From positions 1 through 64,000 of the forward strand of contig CAZCRK010000001.1 of NCBI GenBank assembly GCA_964501035.1: a stretch of 64,000 nt of DNA, written 5' to 3'. The position numbers are program-made. Within the stretch, counting starts at the first letter, position 1; each line of letters opens with the position of its first letter. Positions 12,001 through 21,000 of this stretch are shown here, piece by piece.

Positions 12001-15000
12001 GCTTGAATAATCAAAAGTTGTTGGGCATCTTTTTGACCAAAGAAGGCATGGCTTGGCTGGAATAAATTAAACAATTTTGCTACGATTGTACAGACACCAT
12101 CAAAATGACCTACACGGCTTTTCCCTTCAAGGCTGTGAGATAGTTTGTTTTCGGAAACACTAATTGAATGATGTTTCTTGTACATTTCTTCAGAACTAGG
12201 GATAAAAACAGCATCAACATTGTATGTTTCGAGTAATTGTAAATCTTGTTTTATAGAAATAGGATAGTTTTTAAAATCATTAGCATCTGTAAACTGTGTA
12301 GGGTTTACAAAAATACTTACTACAGTTTTTTTACAGGTTTTTAGAGACTTTTCAACAAGAGATATGTGTCCATCATGAAGCGAACCCATAGTTGGAACCA
12401 ACCCAATGGTGCTACTTGTTTGTTTTCTCCACATTATGCACTCTGAAACCATGGAGAAAGTTTTCATTGCTGTAGAGAATTAATTATATCCATCGCAATA
12501 TGTGCTGAATGCTGTTCAGATGGAAACTGACCGCTTTCAACATCATTTTTATACGCTACCAAGTGTTCTGATATAGATTCACTTAGCTTTGAATATTGAT
12601 GGGTATGCTTTGGCACAAACGTTCCGAACAGGCCTAAAATATCATGATAAACCTGTATTTGACCATCACAATATGGGCCGGCACCAATTCCAATGGTTGG
12701 AATGGAAATAGAATCTGTGATGAGTTTTGCAAGTTCCGCCGGAACACCCTCTAAAACGAGAGCAAAGGCCCCCGCTTCTTCTACCGCCCTTGCATCAACG
12801 AGTAATTTTTTTGCAGATTCAACGTCTTTGCCCTGTACTTTATAACCACCCATTTGATGGAATGATTGAGGCGTGAGACCAATATGTGCTAAAACAGGTA
12901 TTCCTGCACCCACAATTGCTTCAATTCTATCACAATAAATTTTTCCGCCCTCAAGCTTGACAGCTTCAACGCCTGAATCTTTAATAAATCGACCTGCATT
13001 TTTTACTGCATCTCCAACCGAAGTTTGATACGACATGAATGGCATATCAGCAACCACAAAAGCCGTTTTAACTCCTCGTGAAACGGACCGAGAAACAAGC
13101 AACATTTCGTCCATTGAAATAGGGATAGTTGTATCGTATCCATACATAACCATTGCAGCACTATCACCGATAAGTATTAAGGGAATGCCGGCATTATCTA
13201 CAAGCTGAGCTGAAGTAAAGTCGTAGGCTGTTAGTGTAGAAAAAGGTTTAGTTTGATGCTTAAACTTTTGAAAATCTTGAACGGTAATTTTTTTCACAAA
13301 TTAATAAACTAATGTTTCTGCTGTTTCGGTTGAAACTACAGAATTTGATTTATCAACGTGAACAATTGTTGGAGTATGTGAAGAGGCTTCAACTTGAGTT
13401 AATTGGCAATATGACACTATTATCACCAAGTCGCCCTGTGTTACCAGGTGTGCAGCAGCACCATTAATGCAGATTTCACCCGACCCGCGTTTACCCTTAA
13501 TAACATACGTTTCTAAACGATTGCCATTGGTAATATCCAACACATGTACTTTTTCATATTCAATTAAACCGGCTTCATCCATCAAATTTTCATCAATAGT
13601 GATGGATCCGACATAATCTAAATCTGCTTCAGTCACTGTAGCGCGATGAATTTTACATTTCATCATTTCAATAATCATAATTTCCCCATGATACAGACGT
13701 CAAATTTAATAGTTTTGTCTAATAAATACCAAAATATCAAACAATGATAATAAATTGTCTGAATTTATTAATTATCTGCGAGAAATTGTTTGTTATTCGC
13801 CTAAAATCTTAATATTTTTCCTGCTATAGTTTCAGCTATAGATTACTTCAATGATGGCCAAAACAAGGTTAAAAGAAAAATGCTAAACAGATTTAAACTT
13901 TCAATAATTGTATTACTACTTCCACTTTTTGTTCTAAATTGTGGCTATTTAGGTCTCTCAAAATCAACAAAAAAAGAGACAAATACCGAAGAGAAACAAG
14001 AAAAAGCAAAACCAAAACCAGCCGGAAGTAAAAAATCAATAAAAAAAGAGACTCAAAAACCTATTAATGAGAGTGATATGCAGACTATCATTGATGATTT
14101 GAGTATTGAAATTAAAAAACTTCAAGCAAATCAAGCCCGTAATCAAGATCAAATTGATGAACTCAAAGCACAAGCTGCAATTTGGGGAAACCCCTTTTCT
14201 ATATTTAACAAAGAAATTCTGTTAGATAACGGAACAACCGTTTATGGCAAGATAACCTATCAAGATACAGATTTGATAAAAGTAGAAACATTGATTGGTA
14301 CGCTAACTATTGATCGAAAAACGGTTATAAGAGTTGTAGAAAATACAACATCTTTAGAACCCGTTCAGGGTGAAGAAACAACTGAAAACGAAATTGTCCT
14401 CTCTGAAGAAACACCAGTTGTTGAAAGCGGTGTGGACTTAATTGAACGTCGGCAGGGCGGGCCAGTTGCAAACCTTATATTAATGGGTACAATTTCAGAA
14501 AACAAGGATAGTTCCGGCAACACCTCACTAACAGGTGAAATCAAAAATATTGGCACACATCGTGCAGATTTTGCTAAAATTAATTTTATAATCCGACAAA
14601 ATTGGTCAGGTCAAACCAAAACATTAACTGCATTTGTTAAAGGGTCATATCATACATTTGATTCAGATATCACATCAGATTCAAGCATTATGCCAGGTGA
14701 AACAGCGACCTTTGAGCTTATCATTCCAAGTGGTTTTGGCTCATTTATTGGATACTCGTATACCATAGATTGGGAGCAATATGATTAACCCGCGATTTGG
14801 ACATCTTGTCCTTTACGTGATATTGTTGGGCTTTGTTTTTTCAAAGGATGTTATTTTATGGGATTTGGGTATTGTAATTTCAGATAATCCCCCAAATACT
14901 AATATTCATCAACCAGACGAAACTCTAATTATTAAAGAAAAACAATTGGGTGTGATATCATCACCAATGCAAGCTTCTGTTCATAAAATAGAAAACAATT

Positions 15001-18000: not shown

Positions 18001-21000
18001 CCAATTCCTGGGAAATTAAGATTAAAATATCCAACAAACTGGGAATTATCTGCGTCAAGAGCATCAATTGTAGTAAATTATCTTATTAATAAATCGGTAA
18101 TGTCTGGTAGATTAGTTGCTTCTGGCTATGCAGATAGATGGCCGGTTGAGGCGAGTTGGCATGATGTAAGAAGTGGCAAACTTGATGAAAACTTGATTGC
18201 CTCATTTAATAATACAACGGAACAGAAACGTAAAAATAGACGAATAAAAATTATTTTTTCAAAAAATTGAAACAAAGTAGGAGCTAATAGTAAACATGCT
18301 AAATAAAATGAAACATTTAATCTTTTCATTGTTGTTTTTGGTGCCGCTTATCAGCCAAGATACACATTATTTAACAAGTAAAATTGCAATTGAAACATCT
18401 ATACAAGATAAAATTACGTTTGCCATAAATAGAATTATGGATAGATCTGATTTTGTCGTCATGGTAAATGTTGGAATGCAAAAGGGGTATTCACTGAGCT
18501 CATCCGAGAAAACCCAACCTACACCCGATTCTGGTTCATTACAAAACACTTCAAATTCATCGGGCTACACACCTATTCCGGGACTACTTCCAACCGTACC
18601 AAATACAGATGCAACAGTGAATGATAATGCGCAACCAAACCCCAATACGTCAACATATATTTCTGGTTCTAATGGATATCAACTAACTCGTGTTGATATT
18701 GCAGTATATTTGGAAGAGTCTAAGGCTACTGCTGGAGCACAACAAAATATTGAACGACTTATTAGAGAAACTGTACCAGAAACTGCAAATTGTTTTGATT
18801 GCATTCGGTTTGAAACTATGCGCTTTAAAAAAGAAGATGGGAAATCAGAAAATTATAAAGAATTGTTGGCTAAAATTGAAGAACTTGAAAAAGAAAGAAT
18901 TGATGCAGAAAAACAAATTTCTAATTGGAAGTTCGACCAACTCGAAGAACAACTAGCTTCTGCTGAAGACGCTCGGAAAGAATGGGAAGAGCAAGCTAGA
19001 CGAAGAGAATATATTCAATATTTACAAGATTCTACAAGAATGGCTAATCTTGAAGCATTTGAAGTAACACAAAGGGCCAAACAAGATTCACTATTAAAAG
19101 AAACAACATTAAAATTAGATACATCCATAAGCGGGAGGATTGAATCTGAATCCAACACAAAAGATGATTTAATTGATTTGTTAAAATTACAAATCACAAA
19201 CGGCACATTACCTGAAAGCGACGAGTCAGCTACAAACGGATTGTTGGGTATGAAGAAATCAACTCCTTCATCTTCAAATATATTACTTTATGTGTTAATT
19301 GCTGTATTAGGTGTTGCACTGTTGTTCTTATTTTTTCACAAAAAACAACCCCAACCAATATATTTAAAACCAAAGAAGAAACCTGCACCGCAGCCTGAGG
19401 TAGCACCACAACCAGCTGTACAAAAAGAAACACCCAAACCTCAGCCTGTTGAGTCCAATTTAAATCCAACAAGTGCAGATGAAAATGATGATGTAATGCG
19501 TGCTGAAATTAAATCTATTCGCCAATCAGCCGTTTCCATGAGCGTGGGTCAAAAAGAGGGCGCAACCTCAATTGTAAAAGATTGGCTTGATGATACTCCT
19601 TCACCAGAAGCTGATTCAAGCAATGACACTGACGATAAGGATAAGCAATGATGACCTTGCAAGAAAATTTAACCGGACTAGATAAAGCAGCTATTTTGTT
19701 TCAAGTTTTGGGCGAATCATTAGCGCTTACATTATTTCGAGATATTCCAGAGTCAGATATTTTACGCATTCGTGTTAGGTCAAGAGAATTGCGACACATT
19801 TCTATATTGTTAAAAAAATCAGTATTAGAAGAATATTATTTTAAAATGATGTCAGATAAATATAGAAATAATAATAAAAAAGAAACAGGCAAGTTGTTTG
19901 GTTTTTTAGATGAATTAACAAATGAACAAATCCAATATTTACTTGCAAACGAATCTACTCGAGTTGTTGCTTTAGCAACAGATCAATTATCAGAGGATCG
20001 AAAGACAGCTTTCCTTTCAAAATTAGATTCAGAAGAAACCAATGAAATAATTTTTGAGTATGGCAATTTATCTGATATTCCATTAGAGGCAGTTGTAAGT
20101 ATTGCCAACGAATTAAAGAAAAAAGTAACCTTCTTACCTGAACCAAAGGAATTTTCAAGAGGTGGTGGTAAAAGTATTGCAAATATTTTGGGGAATATGT
20201 CTTCTGATGAAGCAGAACAGTATTTAGTAAAAATTAGTCAAGAAGACCCTGAACTGTATGCTGAAGTAAAAAAATATTTCATTACATTTGATGATTTATT
20301 AGATATGCCAGAACATATTATGAGCGAATTTTGGATGAATCCCGATATTGACATTGATGCTTTAGCGAAAGCGCTAAAAGGCTTAGACGAAGACGAAGTG
20401 AAATCTATTGTTGAATATTTACCAAAACGCAAACAGGCTATGTTTACACCTGTTGAAAAACCACTATCTAAAAAAGAGGTGGAAAATGCTCAGCTATCAA
20501 TAGTTGAATTGGCACGAGCAATGGAAAAAGAGGGAAACCTTGATATTGAAGATATTCTCGGCGGCGAATTAATAGAATAATTTTAGATAAAAATGCAAAA
20601 TAAAAAAGGCACCATTTGGTGCCTTTTTTATACTAACAAAATCTGTTAATCTGTTAATCTGTTCTTCTGTTAATTTGTTATGGTGTTAATATAACATTCA
20701 CTAACAATACCACGTCCAGTACATTTAATGCTCCATCACCATTCATATCTGAACATGCATCATAATTATCTGGACAGTCTGCACACAATATCATATTTAC
20801 TGTAAGCACAACATCTAAAACATTGAGGGTATTGTCGCCATTTGAATCGCCCAACAGACACTCAGATCCACCACCATACGTAAAATCTAAACTAGTTGTA
20901 AAGCTCTCATCATCACCATCACTAAACGAGAATGTTGCCGTATAGTCACCGTCAGTTAGTCCAAGATCACTTAATGGCAAAACAAACTCTGCACCGATGC

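What a model noticed while it worked through the whole genome (the two positions that open the first line are those of the whole stretch)
13880..20580. Non-flagellar FliF-like/FliG/MotAB rotor-stator gene cluster in a flagellum-less Marinisomatia genome
Seven co-directional genes (g00015-g00021) encode a lipoprotein, a TPR protein, an outer-membrane beta-barrel fused to a long helix and TPRs, MotA, MotB, a previously unrecognised minimal FliF-like protein (one RBM3-type ring-building domain, a ~117-residue coiled coil, a second TM helix and a conserved cytoplasmic tail) and a full three-domain FliG paralogue. The genome and its whole family have no flagellin, and flagellated relatives keep this cluster beside their ordinary flagellar fliG, so it is a separate, non-flagellar envelope-spanning ion-driven rotor-stator machine, not a flagellar relic.
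Evidence so far: Pfam: g00018 MotA_ExbB, g00019 MotB_plug (E 1e-18; the plug is a mark of flagellar-type stators, PMC12505986 passages) + OmpA, g00021 FliG_N/M/C (pfam.tsv, call 20). g00020 has no Pfam row, but: its AF2 model (32-row alignment; RBM and coiled coil pLDDT 85-98, mean 68; call 34) is alpha-beta-beta-alpha-beta with a disordered insert where FliF RBM3 bears its collar, then a 117-residue helix, a TM helix and a conserved tail; Foldseek vs PDB ranks 1-16 are all FliF MS-ring chains (best E 7.8e-4; call 38); the only genome-wide sub-threshold hit of PF08345 YscJ_FliF_C falls in it (C1:18431-18826, model 3-147 of 147, E 0.02; call 185); ESM-Atlas look-alike clusters (0.96) carry PF08345 on 13-27% o [...]
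(Added by a program. Inside this text positions count along the whole contig: contig position 1 is position 1 of the stretch shown here. "Call 12" and the like, gene names such as g00115 and contig names such as C1 are that model's own, and its searches are not shown. The text may have been shortened before it was handed on; [...] marks where a part breaks off. The agent that wrote the report below was given it as the finding of a first reader that could run no searches.)

Follow-up and report, generated by a model that had tools for sequence, protein, structure and literature searches.

The report
Flagellum-free FliF/FliG/MotAB rotor-stator operon
A bacterium with no flagellum carries a conserved seven-gene operon that pairs the torque-making core of the flagellar motor with outer-membrane proteins, which points to an undescribed ion-driven rotary machine in a widespread group of ocean bacteria.

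Summary
Seven tightly packed co-directional genes (13880-20580) encode a lipoprotein-like protein, a TPR protein, an outer-membrane barrel fused to a long helix and TPRs, MotA, MotB (plug + OmpA), a 451-aa protein and a three-domain FliG paralogue.

- Family profile against PDB: FliF is the top hit, E 5.2e-6.
- hhalign against the relatives' own FliF: 92%, E 5.9e-7.
- 11 of 48 family members hit Pfam YscJ_FliF_C.
- The structure model's best three of 48,161 chains are FliF RBM3 (Z 12.2-10.7).

It has one RBM3 ring domain. A periplasmic spacer of 120-220 residues, found in every member, separates that domain from the membrane helix. A FliF-like cytoplasmic tail follows.

The genome (95.7% complete) shows no flagellin, FliF, FlhA, FliM/N or rod genes. 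The family occurs in 174 of 251 genomes of the phylum, regardless of flagella. Flagellated relatives carry it in addition to their own fliF, fliG and motA. The core genes are under purifying selection.

It is best read as a separate, non-flagellar rotor-stator machine. Its output is unknown, and rotation and envelope-spanning assembly are inferred. I found no paper describing it.

The parts
13880..14788 (+). g00015: 302-aa lipoprotein-like protein. It has a signal sequence ending in an invariant Cys21, a short coiled-coil stretch and a conserved C-terminal beta-rich domain. No known family.
   Evidence: ORF. No Pfam family. A profile of 8 orthologues finds nothing in PDB at E<0.2. Atlas look-alikes are unnamed clusters labelled Fidelibacterota. 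Present in 8 of 8 loci compared. dN/dS 0.08 against the same-genus genome.
14781..15395 (+). g00016: 204-aa TPR protein with an N-terminal hydrophobic segment. It is the fast-evolving, dispensable member of the operon.
   Evidence: A six-sequence profile hits TPR proteins, CpoB 2.7e-9, BamD 4e-9 and YbgF 3.5e-5. Found in 6 of 8 loci. There is no room for it in G004 and G027. 38% identity and dN/dS 0.6 against the same-genus genome.
15392..16735 (+). g00017: 447-aa outer-membrane beta-barrel (about residues 43-271) fused to an 81-residue helix (292-372) and three TPR-like helix pairs (376-438).
   Evidence: AF2 model from 8 orthologues, mean pLDDT 69.4. Foldseek matches OmpG 1e-5, FapF, KdgM, NanC and OMPLA barrels, and TPR designs. 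TPR_2 1e-7. Present in 8 of 8 loci. dN/dS 0.08.
16746..17549 (+). MotA: flagellar-type stator A subunit, 267 aa.
   Evidence: PF01618 1.8e-23. Full-length matches to MotP 4.4e-53, MotA 4.6e-46 and PomA 1.4e-43, all below the equivalog cut-offs. 2.3e-42 to the solved Clostridium MotA, with the R and E of the rotor-facing loop aligned ('evnRssGikgLEde' against 'rkaRreGllsLEda'). dN/dS 0.05.
17533..18270 (+). MotB: stator B subunit, 245 aa, with a TM helix carrying Asp ('YADMM'), a plug and an OmpA-like peptidoglycan-binding domain.
   Evidence: MotB_plug 1e-17 and OmpA 1.8e-15. Matches MotD 1.9e-40 and MotS 1.6e-33, below cut-offs. dN/dS 0.08.
18296..19651 (+). Minimal FliF homologue, 451 aa: signal or anchor helix, RBM3, long helix, TM helix, cytoplasmic tail.
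   Evidence: See the sub-parts below.
18359..18829 (+). RBM3-type ring-building domain (residues 22-178). A 65-residue low-confidence insert (64-127) sits where FliF carries its beta-collar. The insert holds the invariant Gly96 of an 'IPGxP' motif.
   Evidence: VIA-align: FliF 8z5v Z 12.2 (rmsd 2.7 A, 101 aligned); Salmonella FliF 6scn Z 11.5, model 22-178 against FliF 231-438; then PrgK 8.5, SpoIIIAG 7.8, EscJ 7.7. hhalign against the relatives' FliF: query 25-170 against 229-391, probability 92.2%, E 5.9e-7. The insert is 37-111 residues in all 48 members.
18845..19198 (+). Single long helix (residues 184-301), a predicted periplasmic spacer or coiled coil.
   Evidence: AF2 pLDDT 94-98 over most of it. 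The distance from the end of RBM to the TM helix is 120-220 residues (median 153.5) in all 48 family members.
19274..19339 (+). Transmembrane helix (residues 327-348), followed by a basic stretch ('HKKQPQPIYLKPKKK').
   Evidence: AF2 helix. Hydrophobic window score 3.08 here and at least 2.29 in all 48 members. The positive-inside rule is general knowledge.
19487..19591 (+). Conserved two-helix cytoplasmic tail ('RQSAVSMSVGQKEGATxIxKDWL', invariant Trp430), the likely FliG-binding element.
   Evidence: Alignment A1. It aligns with the extreme C-terminus of Vibrio FliF ('LVANEPELAAQVVKNWMNDN', residues 560-579), but this stretch is not significant alone (i-E 44). Complex prediction with the FliG-like N domain gives weak support only.
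19648..20580 (+). FliG paralogue, 310 aa, with N, M and C domains.
   Evidence: All three Pfam domains score above their cut-offs. TIGR00207 fliG scores 96.4 bits against a cut-off of 226.7. It is the only FliG_C match in the genome. 23-25% identical to the canonical FliG of relative G028, against 36-59% among the paralogues. dN/dS 0.03.
20600..20631 (.). Palindromic GC-rich hairpin flanked by A and T runs, between the convergent stop codons. It is a likely bidirectional terminator that closes the operon.
   Evidence: 14-pair stem, listed on the - strand. This is a consensus match only.

Best explanation
The operon encodes a stand-alone rotor-stator machine derived from the flagellar motor that works without a flagellum.

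Shown by sequence and models:
- A flagellar-type MotA/MotB stator. It has a plug, a peptidoglycan anchor and the conserved Arg and Glu of the rotor-facing loop.
- A three-domain FliG paralogue.
- A FliF paralogue reduced to one RBM3 ring domain, a periplasmic helix of 120-220 residues, one membrane helix and a FliF-like cytoplasmic tail.
- An outer-membrane barrel with a long periplasmic helix and TPRs, a TPR protein and a lipoprotein-like protein.

Inferred mechanism:
- The FliF-like protein forms a ring in the inner membrane.
- Its tail co-folds with the FliG N domain, so that a FliG ring lines the cytoplasmic face.
- Ion flow (H+ or Na+) through peptidoglycan-anchored MotAB turns that ring, as in the flagellar motor.
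- There is no export gate, rod, hook or filament. Instead the ring's long periplasmic helices place the RBM3 ring far from the inner membrane. A 118-residue helix would be about 17 nm if straight.
- There it can meet the 81-residue helix and TPR domain of the outer-membrane barrel protein and the lipoprotein. Work would then be delivered to the outer membrane or cell surface.

The output is not known. It could be surface movement, envelope remodelling or export.
For: Gene identities.

FliF homology of the 451-aa protein:
- A profile of 48 family members against PDB gives FliF 8z5s at E 5.2e-6, and 5 of the 6 best hits are FliF.
- hhalign against 9 canonical FliFs of relatives gives probability 92.2%, E 5.9e-7 over 143 columns.
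- 11 of 48 members hit PF08345, best 1.5e-11.
- In VIA-align the top 3 of 48,161 chains are FliF RBM3, Z 12.2, 11.5 and 10.7. Other ring-building domains come next at 8.5 or below.
- Foldseek: 15 of the first 17 ranks are FliF.

Not flagellar:
- The own genome (95.7% complete) has no match to flagellin, PF01514, FlhA, FliMN_C or the rod motif. It has a single FliG_C match.

Independent of flagella across the phylum (FliF-like, FlhA):
- FliF-like is in 174 of 251 genomes and 80 of 94 genera. FlhA is in 62 of 251.
- f1: 10/10 against 0/10. f8: 15/15 against 0/15. f10: 28/30 against 2/30. f5: 9/9 against 9/9. f30: 1/9 against 9/9.

Separate from the flagellum where both exist:
- All 7 flagellated relatives that have the cluster also have a canonical fliF-fliG elsewhere. 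G038 has FlhA but not the cluster.
- Of the four cluster-bearing flagellated relatives checked (G027, G028, G032, G039), each has a further MotA-family gene besides the cluster's motA and an ExbB-sized one. In G028 it lies about 9 kb from the canonical fliG; for the other three the position relative to flagellar genes was not checked. The flagellated G038, which lacks the cluster, also lacks the cluster-type motA.

One unit:
- Six genes are in the same order in 8 of 8 loci from five families. The TPR gene is in 6 of 8.

Selection:
- dN/dS is 0.03-0.12 for the six core genes against the same-genus genome. dS is 1.0-2.1, near saturation, so the values are approximate.

Geometry:
- The long spacer is present in all 48 members, minimum 120 residues.
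- The barrel protein carries an 81-residue helix and TPRs.

Tail-FliG binding, weak support only:
- Score 0.50, best control 0.01.
- The mark was reached by 116 of 157 solved complexes and 2 of 215 mismatches.
- At 0.60 or under it was reached by only 18 of those 157 and by both passing mismatches.
- The runs share at least 79% of contacts, and partner pLDDT is at least 62.
- FliF-FliG complexes are solved, so the pass may reflect memory.
Against: - There is no experiment and no expression data.
- Ring formation, rotation and any contact between the FliF-like ring and the three upstream proteins are inferred from monomer models and gene order.
- The FliG paralogue departs from working FliGs at functional motifs. 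The torque helix has a 3-residue deletion where the acidic pair lies: T. maritima 'LLKDELEYMGPVR' against 'MFTP-VE--KPLS'. The arginine after 'GPV' is not kept. The 'EHPQ' FliM-binding motif reads ESTR or EKPR.
- MotA, MotB and FliG all score below NCBIfam equivalog cut-offs.
- The window's own FliF-like protein is below the Pfam cut-off (15.7 against 23.8 bits).
- A small MotA tree did not resolve the cluster MotAs as a clade apart from flagellar ones.
- The only cultured member of the phylum is described as non-motile (PMC11652737, passages read). Whether it carries the cluster was not tested.
- The family is missing from 77 of 251 genomes, including all 20 of the 1-Mb family f7, so it is not essential.
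Confidence: 0.7

Rival explanations
1. Force transducer rather than free rotor. The same proteins assemble, but the MotAB-driven FliG/FliF-like ring is physically tied to the outer-membrane barrel through the long helices. It then acts like Tol-Pal or Ton, delivering pulling or limited turning force for outer-membrane tethering, constriction at division or gating of the barrel, not continuous rotation.
For: The TPR protein's closest solved relatives include CpoB (2.7e-9), BamD (4e-9) and YbgF (3.5e-5). No TolB_N match was found in the own genome. The machine has an OmpA-type anchor, an outer-membrane barrel and a lipoprotein, as envelope systems do. The FliG torque helix is altered.
Against: The stator is of the flagellar type, with a plug and a full rotor-facing cytoplasmic domain. 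The mBio 2025 survey finds these features only in flagellar stators and not in Tol/Exb-type ones (PMC12505986, passages read). FliG and a FliF ring domain are known only from a rotating assembly. The TPR gene is missing in 2 of 8 loci.
Confidence: 0.15
2. Accessory or second flagellar motor. The cluster is what remains of a second flagellar system, or an accessory of the ordinary one. Flagellum-less lineages keep it only for a side role such as signalling or membrane-potential sensing.
For: All four core proteins are flagellar paralogues. In G027 the cluster lies about 20 kb from flhA on the same contig. Flagella occur in scattered families across the phylum, 62 of 251 genomes, so the ancestor may have been flagellated.
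Against: The cluster is complete in whole flagellum-less families (f1 10/10, f8 15/15). It is nearly absent from one fully flagellated family (f30 1/9 against FlhA 9/9). It never includes export, rod or hook genes in the 8 loci compared. In G028 it lies about 525 kb from the flagellar fliF-fliG. Its partners are outer-membrane and TPR proteins found with it in every locus.
Confidence: 0.08
3. Motor of the type IX secretion system. The phylum has the SprA translocon but no detectable GldM, so this cluster would replace GldLM as the energiser.
For: SprA is present in the own genome and in 249 of 251 genomes of the phylum. GldM was not found with TIGR03517 in the own genome nor with PF12081 in 0 of 251 genomes. 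GldLM is also a 5:2 motor with a periplasm-spanning arm (established knowledge).
Against: At least 75 genomes have SprA without the FliF-like gene (174 of 251 against 249 of 251). These include f7 (0/20 against 20/20), f26 (5/33 against 32/33) and f30 (1/9 against 9/9). The GldM negatives are inconclusive, because no control genome rang for either model. The cluster is not next to sprA, which lies on contig C12 while the cluster is on C1.
Confidence: 0.04
4. Decaying flagellar relic with no function of its own.
For: The genes are flagellar paralogues in a genome without a flagellum.
Against: The reading frames are intact across the phylum. All but a handful of listed matches have no internal stop. 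dN/dS is 0.03-0.12. The gene order is fixed in five families. Flagellated relatives keep it alongside intact flagellar genes.
Confidence: 0.02

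Closest known systems
Core of the bacterial flagellar motor: MS-ring FliF, rotor FliG, stator MotAB/PomAB
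   Same: The stator is flagellar-type: four-helix MotA with a large cytoplasmic domain and the conserved Arg and Glu, and MotB with the TM Asp, plug and OmpA-like domain. FliG has N, M and C domains with the Gly-Gly linker kept. The FliF RBM3 fold has an insert at the collar position. A membrane helix is followed by a Trp-containing C-terminal tail like the FliG-binding tail of FliF.
   Different: RBM1 and RBM2 are absent (PF01514 not found). A spacer of 120-220 residues lies between RBM3 and the membrane helix. From recall, canonical FliF has only a short linker there. No export apparatus, rod, hook, filament or FliM/FliN was found. The FliG acidic pair and the EHPQ motif are not kept. The constant partners are an outer-membrane barrel-TPR protein, a TPR protein and a lipoprotein.
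GldLM/PorLM motor of gliding motility and type IX secretion
   Same: An ion-driven inner-membrane motor of the MotAB superfamily. A long periplasmic arm reaches outer-membrane partners in a bacterium of the same superphylum (established knowledge). SprA is present in this genome.
   Different: No GldM was detected, though the test is inconclusive. Here the stator is flagellar-type and acts on a FliG/FliF-like ring rather than carrying the periplasmic arm itself. The distribution does not follow SprA.
Tol-Pal and Ton systems, and the Myxococcus Agl-Glt gliding machine
   Same: A MotAB-family motor encoded beside TPR proteins, OmpA-type anchors, lipoproteins and outer-membrane barrels, which transmits energy to the outer membrane. 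The TPR protein resembles CpoB, YbgF and BamD.
   Different: Those motors are of the TolQR/ExbBD type, without a plug and without FliG or FliF partners (PMC12505986 passages). The genome has its own ExbB-ExbD-ExbD-TonB set elsewhere.
Other ring-building-motif rings: PrgK/EscJ of injectisomes, SpoIIIAG/SpoIIIAH of the sporulation channel
   Same: The same alpha-beta-beta-alpha-beta ring-building fold. They score Z 8.5, 7.7, 7.8 and 7.3 against the model.
   Different: They score 2 to 4 Z units below FliF RBM3. They have no FliG-binding tail and no stator partner.

Membership tests
FliF (flagellar MS-ring protein) | RBM3 / YscJ_FliF_C domain (PF08345) | tested here: met
   The window protein alone is sub-threshold (15.7 bits against 23.8, E 0.02). 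The family is linked by four results: 11 of 48 members hit PF08345, best 1.5e-11; family profile against PDB FliF E 5.2e-6; hhalign against the relatives' FliF 92.2%, E 5.9e-7; VIA-align Z 12.2-10.7 to FliF RBM3.
FliF (flagellar MS-ring protein) | N-terminal RBM1-RBM2 region (PF01514 YscJ_FliF) | tested here: not met
   No PF01514 match in the genome at E<=1. The protein starts RBM3 at about residue 22, directly after the signal or anchor helix. It is therefore a truncated paralogue, not an orthodox FliF.
FliF (flagellar MS-ring protein) | Second membrane helix followed by a cytoplasmic C-terminal tail that binds FliG_N | tested here: inconclusive
   The TM helix at 327-348 and the conserved two-helix tail with invariant Trp430 are present. 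The tail aligns to the Vibrio FliF C-terminus, but not significantly alone (i-E 44). Complex prediction gives weak support: 0.50 against a best control of 0.01.
FliF (flagellar MS-ring protein) | Encoded with and housing the type III export gate and rod | tested here: not met
   No FlhA or rod motif in the genome. None lies in the 8 loci compared.
FliG (rotor/switch protein) | FliG_N, FliG_M and FliG_C domains above Pfam cut-offs | tested here: met
   50.3, 34.9 and 69.0 bits against cut-offs of 25, 25 and 23.3.
FliG (rotor/switch protein) | Equivalog score (TIGR00207) | tested here: not met
   96.4 bits against a cut-off of 226.7. 23-25% identity to the canonical FliG of a relative.
FliG (rotor/switch protein) | Charged torque-helix residues (E. 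coli R281, D288, D289, R297; numbering as quoted in PMC12505986 and PMC7564593, passages and abstract) | tested here: not met
   A basic residue is kept at the R281 position (K/R in most of 9 paralogues). A 3-residue deletion removes the acidic pair, leaving one semi-conserved acidic residue (6 of 9). R297 is replaced.
FliG (rotor/switch protein) | EHPQR motif of FliG_M that binds FliM (motif name recalled) | tested here: not met
   The canonical relative reads EHPQ. The paralogues read E-[S/K]-[T/P]-[R/K]. No FliMN_C was found in the genome.
Flagellar-type MotAB stator ('FIT' group of PMC12505986) | Plug next to the MotB TM helix, plus an OmpA-like domain | tested here: met
   MotB_plug 1e-17 and OmpA 1.8e-15. 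The feature list comes from the paper's passages.
Flagellar-type MotAB stator ('FIT' group of PMC12505986) | Expanded cytoplasmic torque-generating domain of MotA with the conserved Arg and Glu | tested here: met
   Full-length alignment to solved MotA and PomA chains (2.3e-42 to 1.4e-28) with R and E aligned. I did not count the helices of the domain.
Flagellar-type MotAB stator ('FIT' group of PMC12505986) | Equivalog scores for MotA, MotP, PomA, MotB or MotS | tested here: not met
   The best hits are MotP at 180 bits against 394 and MotD at 139 against 283.
GldLM/PorLM type IX secretion motor | GldM protein | tested here: inconclusive
   TIGR03517 gives no match in the own genome. PF12081 gives 0 of 251 in the phylum. 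No control genome rang for either model.
Tol-Pal system | TolB | tested here: not met
   No TolB_N match in the own genome; the controls rang in E. coli and Caulobacter. The stator is not of the TolQ type (TolQ E 6.3e-5 against MotP 4.4e-53).

The most novel reading that the evidence does not exclude
A new class of envelope-spanning rotary machine. A FliG/mini-FliF rotor is spun by flagellar-type stators. Its ring of periplasmic coiled coils acts as a drive shaft to an outer-membrane barrel-TPR-lipoprotein complex. This would give abundant, flagellum-less ocean bacteria (SAR406 / Marinisomatota) a so far unseen form of surface movement or mechanically driven export. It would also show that the flagellar rotor-stator module can exist and evolve apart from the type III export apparatus.
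Probability: 0.4. Interest if true: 0.92.

Novelty: new variant of a known kind. Interest (0 to 1): 0.78.

Why it matters
1. Every FliG/FliF/MotAB assembly I know of from the literature belongs to a flagellum (recalled knowledge, not a search result). A conserved version without export gate, rod, hook or filament would show that the torque-making module is separable. That bears on how the flagellum was assembled in evolution from a rotor-stator part and a secretion part.

2. The carriers belong to a phylum that is abundant in the dark and low-oxygen ocean and has almost no cultured members. A dedicated ion-driven machine kept in 174 of 251 sampled genomes points to an unknown cell-envelope or motility function.

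3. There is a practical consequence. Surveys that score fliG or motA as markers of flagellar motility (for example PMC10359470, methods passage read) could count these bacteria as motile if they relied on such genes.

4. The parts are few and small. Ring formation, FliG binding and stator function can be tested by expression, cryo-EM and complementation.

Tried and rejected
- The search for related loci on genome contigs failed three times with alignments A1, A4 and A5 ('no stretch conserved enough'). I did not search genomes outside the phylum. The statement that the family is restricted to this phylum rests on three things. The family is small: 203 representatives at E<=0.001 among 1.84 billion proteins, and those representatives carry no taxonomy. 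Source names exist for three members. Atlas clusters are labelled Fidelibacterota from few records.
- Expression: no RNA holder was listed for the operon. I did not lay reads.
- g00015 profile against PDB gave nothing below E 0.2. The g00017 profile against PDB hit only TPRs.
- A MotA tree of 16 rows was poorly resolved: 7 of 13 inner branches were open and the ExbB outgroup sat on a very long branch. I draw no order of duplication from it.
- GldM searches were uninformative for lack of a positive control.
- Literature searches found no paper on a non-flagellar FliF/FliG/MotAB cluster or on this cluster in Marinimicrobia. I read passages of PMC12505986, PMC11652737, PMC10359470 and PMC13277936. 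None mentions it. Subscription journals and supplements were not searched.
- Rejected readings: decaying relic, obligatory T9SS motor, Tol-Pal member. See the rival explanations and the membership tests.

Full report
**What is there.** Window positions 13880-20580 hold seven co-directional open reading frames. Their junctions are overlaps of 8, 4, 17 and 4 nt or gaps of 10 and 25 nt. A divergent panD-panB-panC set lies upstream. A GC-rich palindromic hairpin at 20600-20631 lies between the last stop codon and a convergent gene. This is the layout of one operon. G+C content is even across the region.

**The recognisable genes.**
- Gene 4 is MotA: PF01618 1.8e-23, and full-length matches to MotP 4.4e-53, MotA 4.6e-46 and PomA 1.4e-43, all below the equivalog cut-offs.
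- Against solved structures it aligns end to end with flagellar MotA and PomA chains (2.3e-42 to 1.4e-28). TolQ reaches only 6.5e-5. The Arg and Glu of the rotor-facing loop are aligned.
- Gene 5 is MotB, with the plug (1e-17) and an OmpA-like domain (1.8e-15). A 2025 survey reports the plug, the expanded MotA cytoplasmic domain and the expanded peptidoglycan-binding domain as marks of flagellar stators, missing from Tol/Exb-type relatives (PMC12505986, passages read).
- Gene 7 has all three FliG domains above Pfam cut-offs. It falls far below the fliG equivalog cut-off (96.4 against 226.7 bits).

**The 451-aa protein is a cut-down FliF.**
- It has no Pfam family of its own. It belongs to a family of at least 276 proteins in the 5.8-billion set and 203 representatives at 50% identity.
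- A profile of 48 diverse members (A1) searched against all PDB sequences puts Vibrio FliF first (E 5.2e-6). Five of the six best hits are FliF.
- I took the nine canonical FliF genes of flagellated relatives and aligned them (A2). Profile-profile comparison gives 92.2% probability and E 5.9e-7. Residues 25-170 align to FliF 229-391, the RBM3 region.
- Eleven of the 48 members reach Pfam YscJ_FliF_C on their own, best 1.5e-11. NCBI's pipeline names one of them a 'FliF C-terminal domain-containing protein'.
- The AF2 model (mean pLDDT 72.4) has this order: helix 23-45, strand 53-63, an unconfident insert at 64-127, strand 128-139, helix 146-159, strand 170-174, one helix 184-301, a membrane helix 327-348, and two tail helices 398-432.
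- In an all-against-all structural search of 48,161 chains the three best are FliF MS-ring chains. They score Z 12.2, 11.5 and 10.7. The Salmonella match covers model 22-178 against FliF 231-438 at 2.2 A. Other ring-building domains follow: PrgK 8.5, SpoIIIAG 7.8, EscJ 7.7.
- Foldseek agrees: 15 of the first 17 ranks are FliF and 2 are Ohr.
- The insert sits where FliF bears its collar. It holds one of only two invariant residues of the family, Gly96 in an 'IPGxP' motif.
- The other invariant residue is Trp430, in the tail 'GQKEGATxIxKDWL'. HMMER lays this tail on the last residues of Vibrio FliF, though not significantly by itself.
- The protein lacks RBM1 and RBM2 (no PF01514 match).
- It has a spacer of 120-220 residues (median 153.5) between RBM3 and the membrane helix in all 48 members.

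**The FliG paralogue keeps the fold but not all working motifs.** I aligned nine paralogues with a canonical FliG of relative G028 and with T. maritima FliG.
- The Gly-Gly linker and the hinge phenylalanine are kept.
- 'EHPQ' becomes ESTR or EKPR.
- The torque helix keeps a basic residue at the R281 position.
- A three-residue deletion lies where the acidic pair belongs, and the later arginine is lost.
- MotA keeps its charged pair. The interface may have changed rather than vanished, but this counts against a simple copy of flagellar torque generation.

**The three upstream genes.**
- Gene 3 models as a beta-barrel (strands 43-271), an 81-residue helix and TPR helices (pLDDT 69.4, from only 8 sequences). 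Foldseek matches outer-membrane barrels (OmpG 1e-5, FapF, KdgM, NanC, OMPLA) and TPR proteins.
- Gene 2 is a TPR protein once a profile is used. Its nearest solved relatives include CpoB, BamD and YbgF.
- Gene 1 has an invariant Cys21 after a signal-like segment and a conserved C-terminal domain with no known relative.

**No flagellum in this genome.** The assembly is 95.7% complete. It has no match to flagellin, FliF PF01514, FlhA, FliMN_C or the rod motif, and it has a single FliG_C match, this one. The controls rang in flagellated model genomes each time.

**Distribution.**
- Among 41 relatives of the order, the FliF-like gene is in 37 and FliG_C in 38. FlhA is in 8 and canonical FliF in 9.
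- The family f1 has 23 of 24 with the FliF-like gene and none with FlhA or FliF.
- All seven flagellated genomes that have the cluster carry both sets. In the one-contig genome G028 the canonical fliF-fliG is at 2.94 Mb and the cluster at 2.42 Mb.
- Of the flagellated relatives checked for MotA, the four with the cluster (G027, G028, G032, G039) each carry a further MotA-family gene besides the cluster's motA and an ExbB-sized one. In G028 it lies about 9 kb from the canonical fliG. The flagellated G038, which lacks the cluster, also lacks the cluster-type motA.
- Cluster MotAs are 39-55% identical to the window's. Flagellar MotAs of the relatives are 33-37% identical.
- Across 251 genomes drawn from the phylum, the family is in 174 genomes and 80 of 94 genera. 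FlhA is in 62. The two are unlinked, FliF-like against FlhA: f8 15/15 against 0/15, f10 28/30 against 2/30, f5 9/9 against 9/9, f30 1/9 against 9/9, f7 0/20 against 0/20.

**One conserved unit under selection.**
- In eight loci from five families, six genes keep the same order in all eight. The small TPR gene is in six.
- No export, rod or hook gene lies in any of them.
- Against the same-genus genome, dN/dS is 0.03 (FliG-like), 0.05 (MotA), 0.08 (MotB, gene 1, gene 3) and 0.12 (FliF-like). dS is near saturation. The small TPR gene evolves fast, at 0.6.

**How it most likely works.**
- Shown: the parts list, the homologies, the topology (signal, periplasmic RBM3 and spacer, one membrane helix with a basic stretch after it, a cytoplasmic tail), and the independence from flagella.
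- Inferred: the FliF-like protein forms a ring, its tail holds a ring of the FliG paralogue, and peptidoglycan-anchored MotAB units turn it with ion flow.
- The complex test for tail plus FliG_N gave only weak support (0.50 against a best control of 0.01). It may also echo solved FliF-FliG structures.
- A straight 118-residue helix would be about 17 nm long and the barrel protein's 81-residue helix about 12 nm. Together they are of the order of a periplasm's width (general knowledge).
- A shaft-like array of helices could therefore bring the RBM3 ring to the TPR end of the barrel protein. TPR domains bind extended peptides, so the invariant 'IPGxP' segment is a candidate contact.
- I cannot decide what work is done at the outer membrane.
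- The best stator matches are to Na+-type MotP, PomA and MotS. This hints at sodium but does not show it.

**Rivals.**
- A Tol- or Ton-like force transducer with limited movement is the most serious one: CpoB/BamD-like TPRs, no TolB found, an altered torque helix.
- A leftover of a second flagellar system fits the paralogy but not the distribution or the partners.
- The type IX motor idea deserved a test, because SprA is present and no GldM was found (no positive control). But SprA is in 249 of 251 genomes, including all families that lack the cluster.
- A decaying relic is excluded by conservation.

**Novelty.** Seven full-text searches and passages of four papers gave no description of such a cluster. 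The description of the phylum's only isolate calls it non-motile and mentions no motor genes. The mechanism is that of a known machine. The architecture and context are new, so I rate it a new variant of a known kind, with a substantial chance of being a machine class of its own.

**Limits.**
- No experiment and no expression data.
- Monomer models only.
- Alignments for genes 1-3 were shallow.
- No search outside the phylum succeeded.
- Supplements and subscription journals were not searched.

Noticed in passing
G000 contig C16, locus L004: 722-2196 (- strand): The genome has a second MotA (271 aa) / MotB-like (220 aa, weak plug 2.9e-7 plus OmpA) pair directly downstream of enolase and ftsB/DivIC. 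It is only 29% identical to the cluster's MotA. It groups with a MotA on contig C4 of relative G027 (98/93 support, long branches). It is a third stator type in a flagellum-less cell, of unknown role and possibly linked to division.
   Followed up: partly
L021 (G025:C8) 1976-5171: Relatives of family f2 carry an extra 529-545-aa protein with a FliG_C-like C-terminal part (E 3e-15 to 1e-12), followed by two TPR genes. These genomes have no FlhA or FliF. This may be another non-flagellar use of the FliG fold.
   Followed up: no
G000 contig C12: 25206-31834, and the whole phylum: The T9SS translocon SprA is nearly universal in the phylum (249 of 251 genomes). GldM was found in none (PF12081 0 of 251; TIGR03517 none in G000). 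No control genome rang, so either GldM is too diverged to detect or the translocon is energised differently.
   Followed up: partly
window 20678-22204 (- strand): A 508-aa protein with a C-terminal dockerin type I domain (3.4e-5) lies convergent to the operon. It keeps that place in 4 of 8 loci, followed by pyruvate phosphate dikinase. This is probably plain synteny, but a secreted dockerin protein beside an envelope machine may be worth a look.
   Followed up: no
alignment A1, columns about 500-620 (members P0168, P0187): Some family members carry Cys-rich repeated inserts ('C..P.A.NY..' type) inside the periplasmic spacer, which lengthen it to 209-220 residues. Many members have a 'CxDC' motif at the end of RBM3 where distant members and canonical FliF read 'RGD'.
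   Followed up: no
G027 contig C8: In this flagellated relative the cluster (FliG-like at 10203-10526, FliF-like at 11226-12635) lies about 22 kb from flhA (34837-36789) on the same contig. In G028 the cluster and the flagellar genes are about 525 kb apart.
   Followed up: no
window 11631-13678 (- strand): panC, panB and panD (pantothenate synthesis) lie divergent to the operon in 5 to 6 of 8 loci across the order. The shared 200-nt intergenic region (13679-13879) is AT-rich.
   Followed up: no
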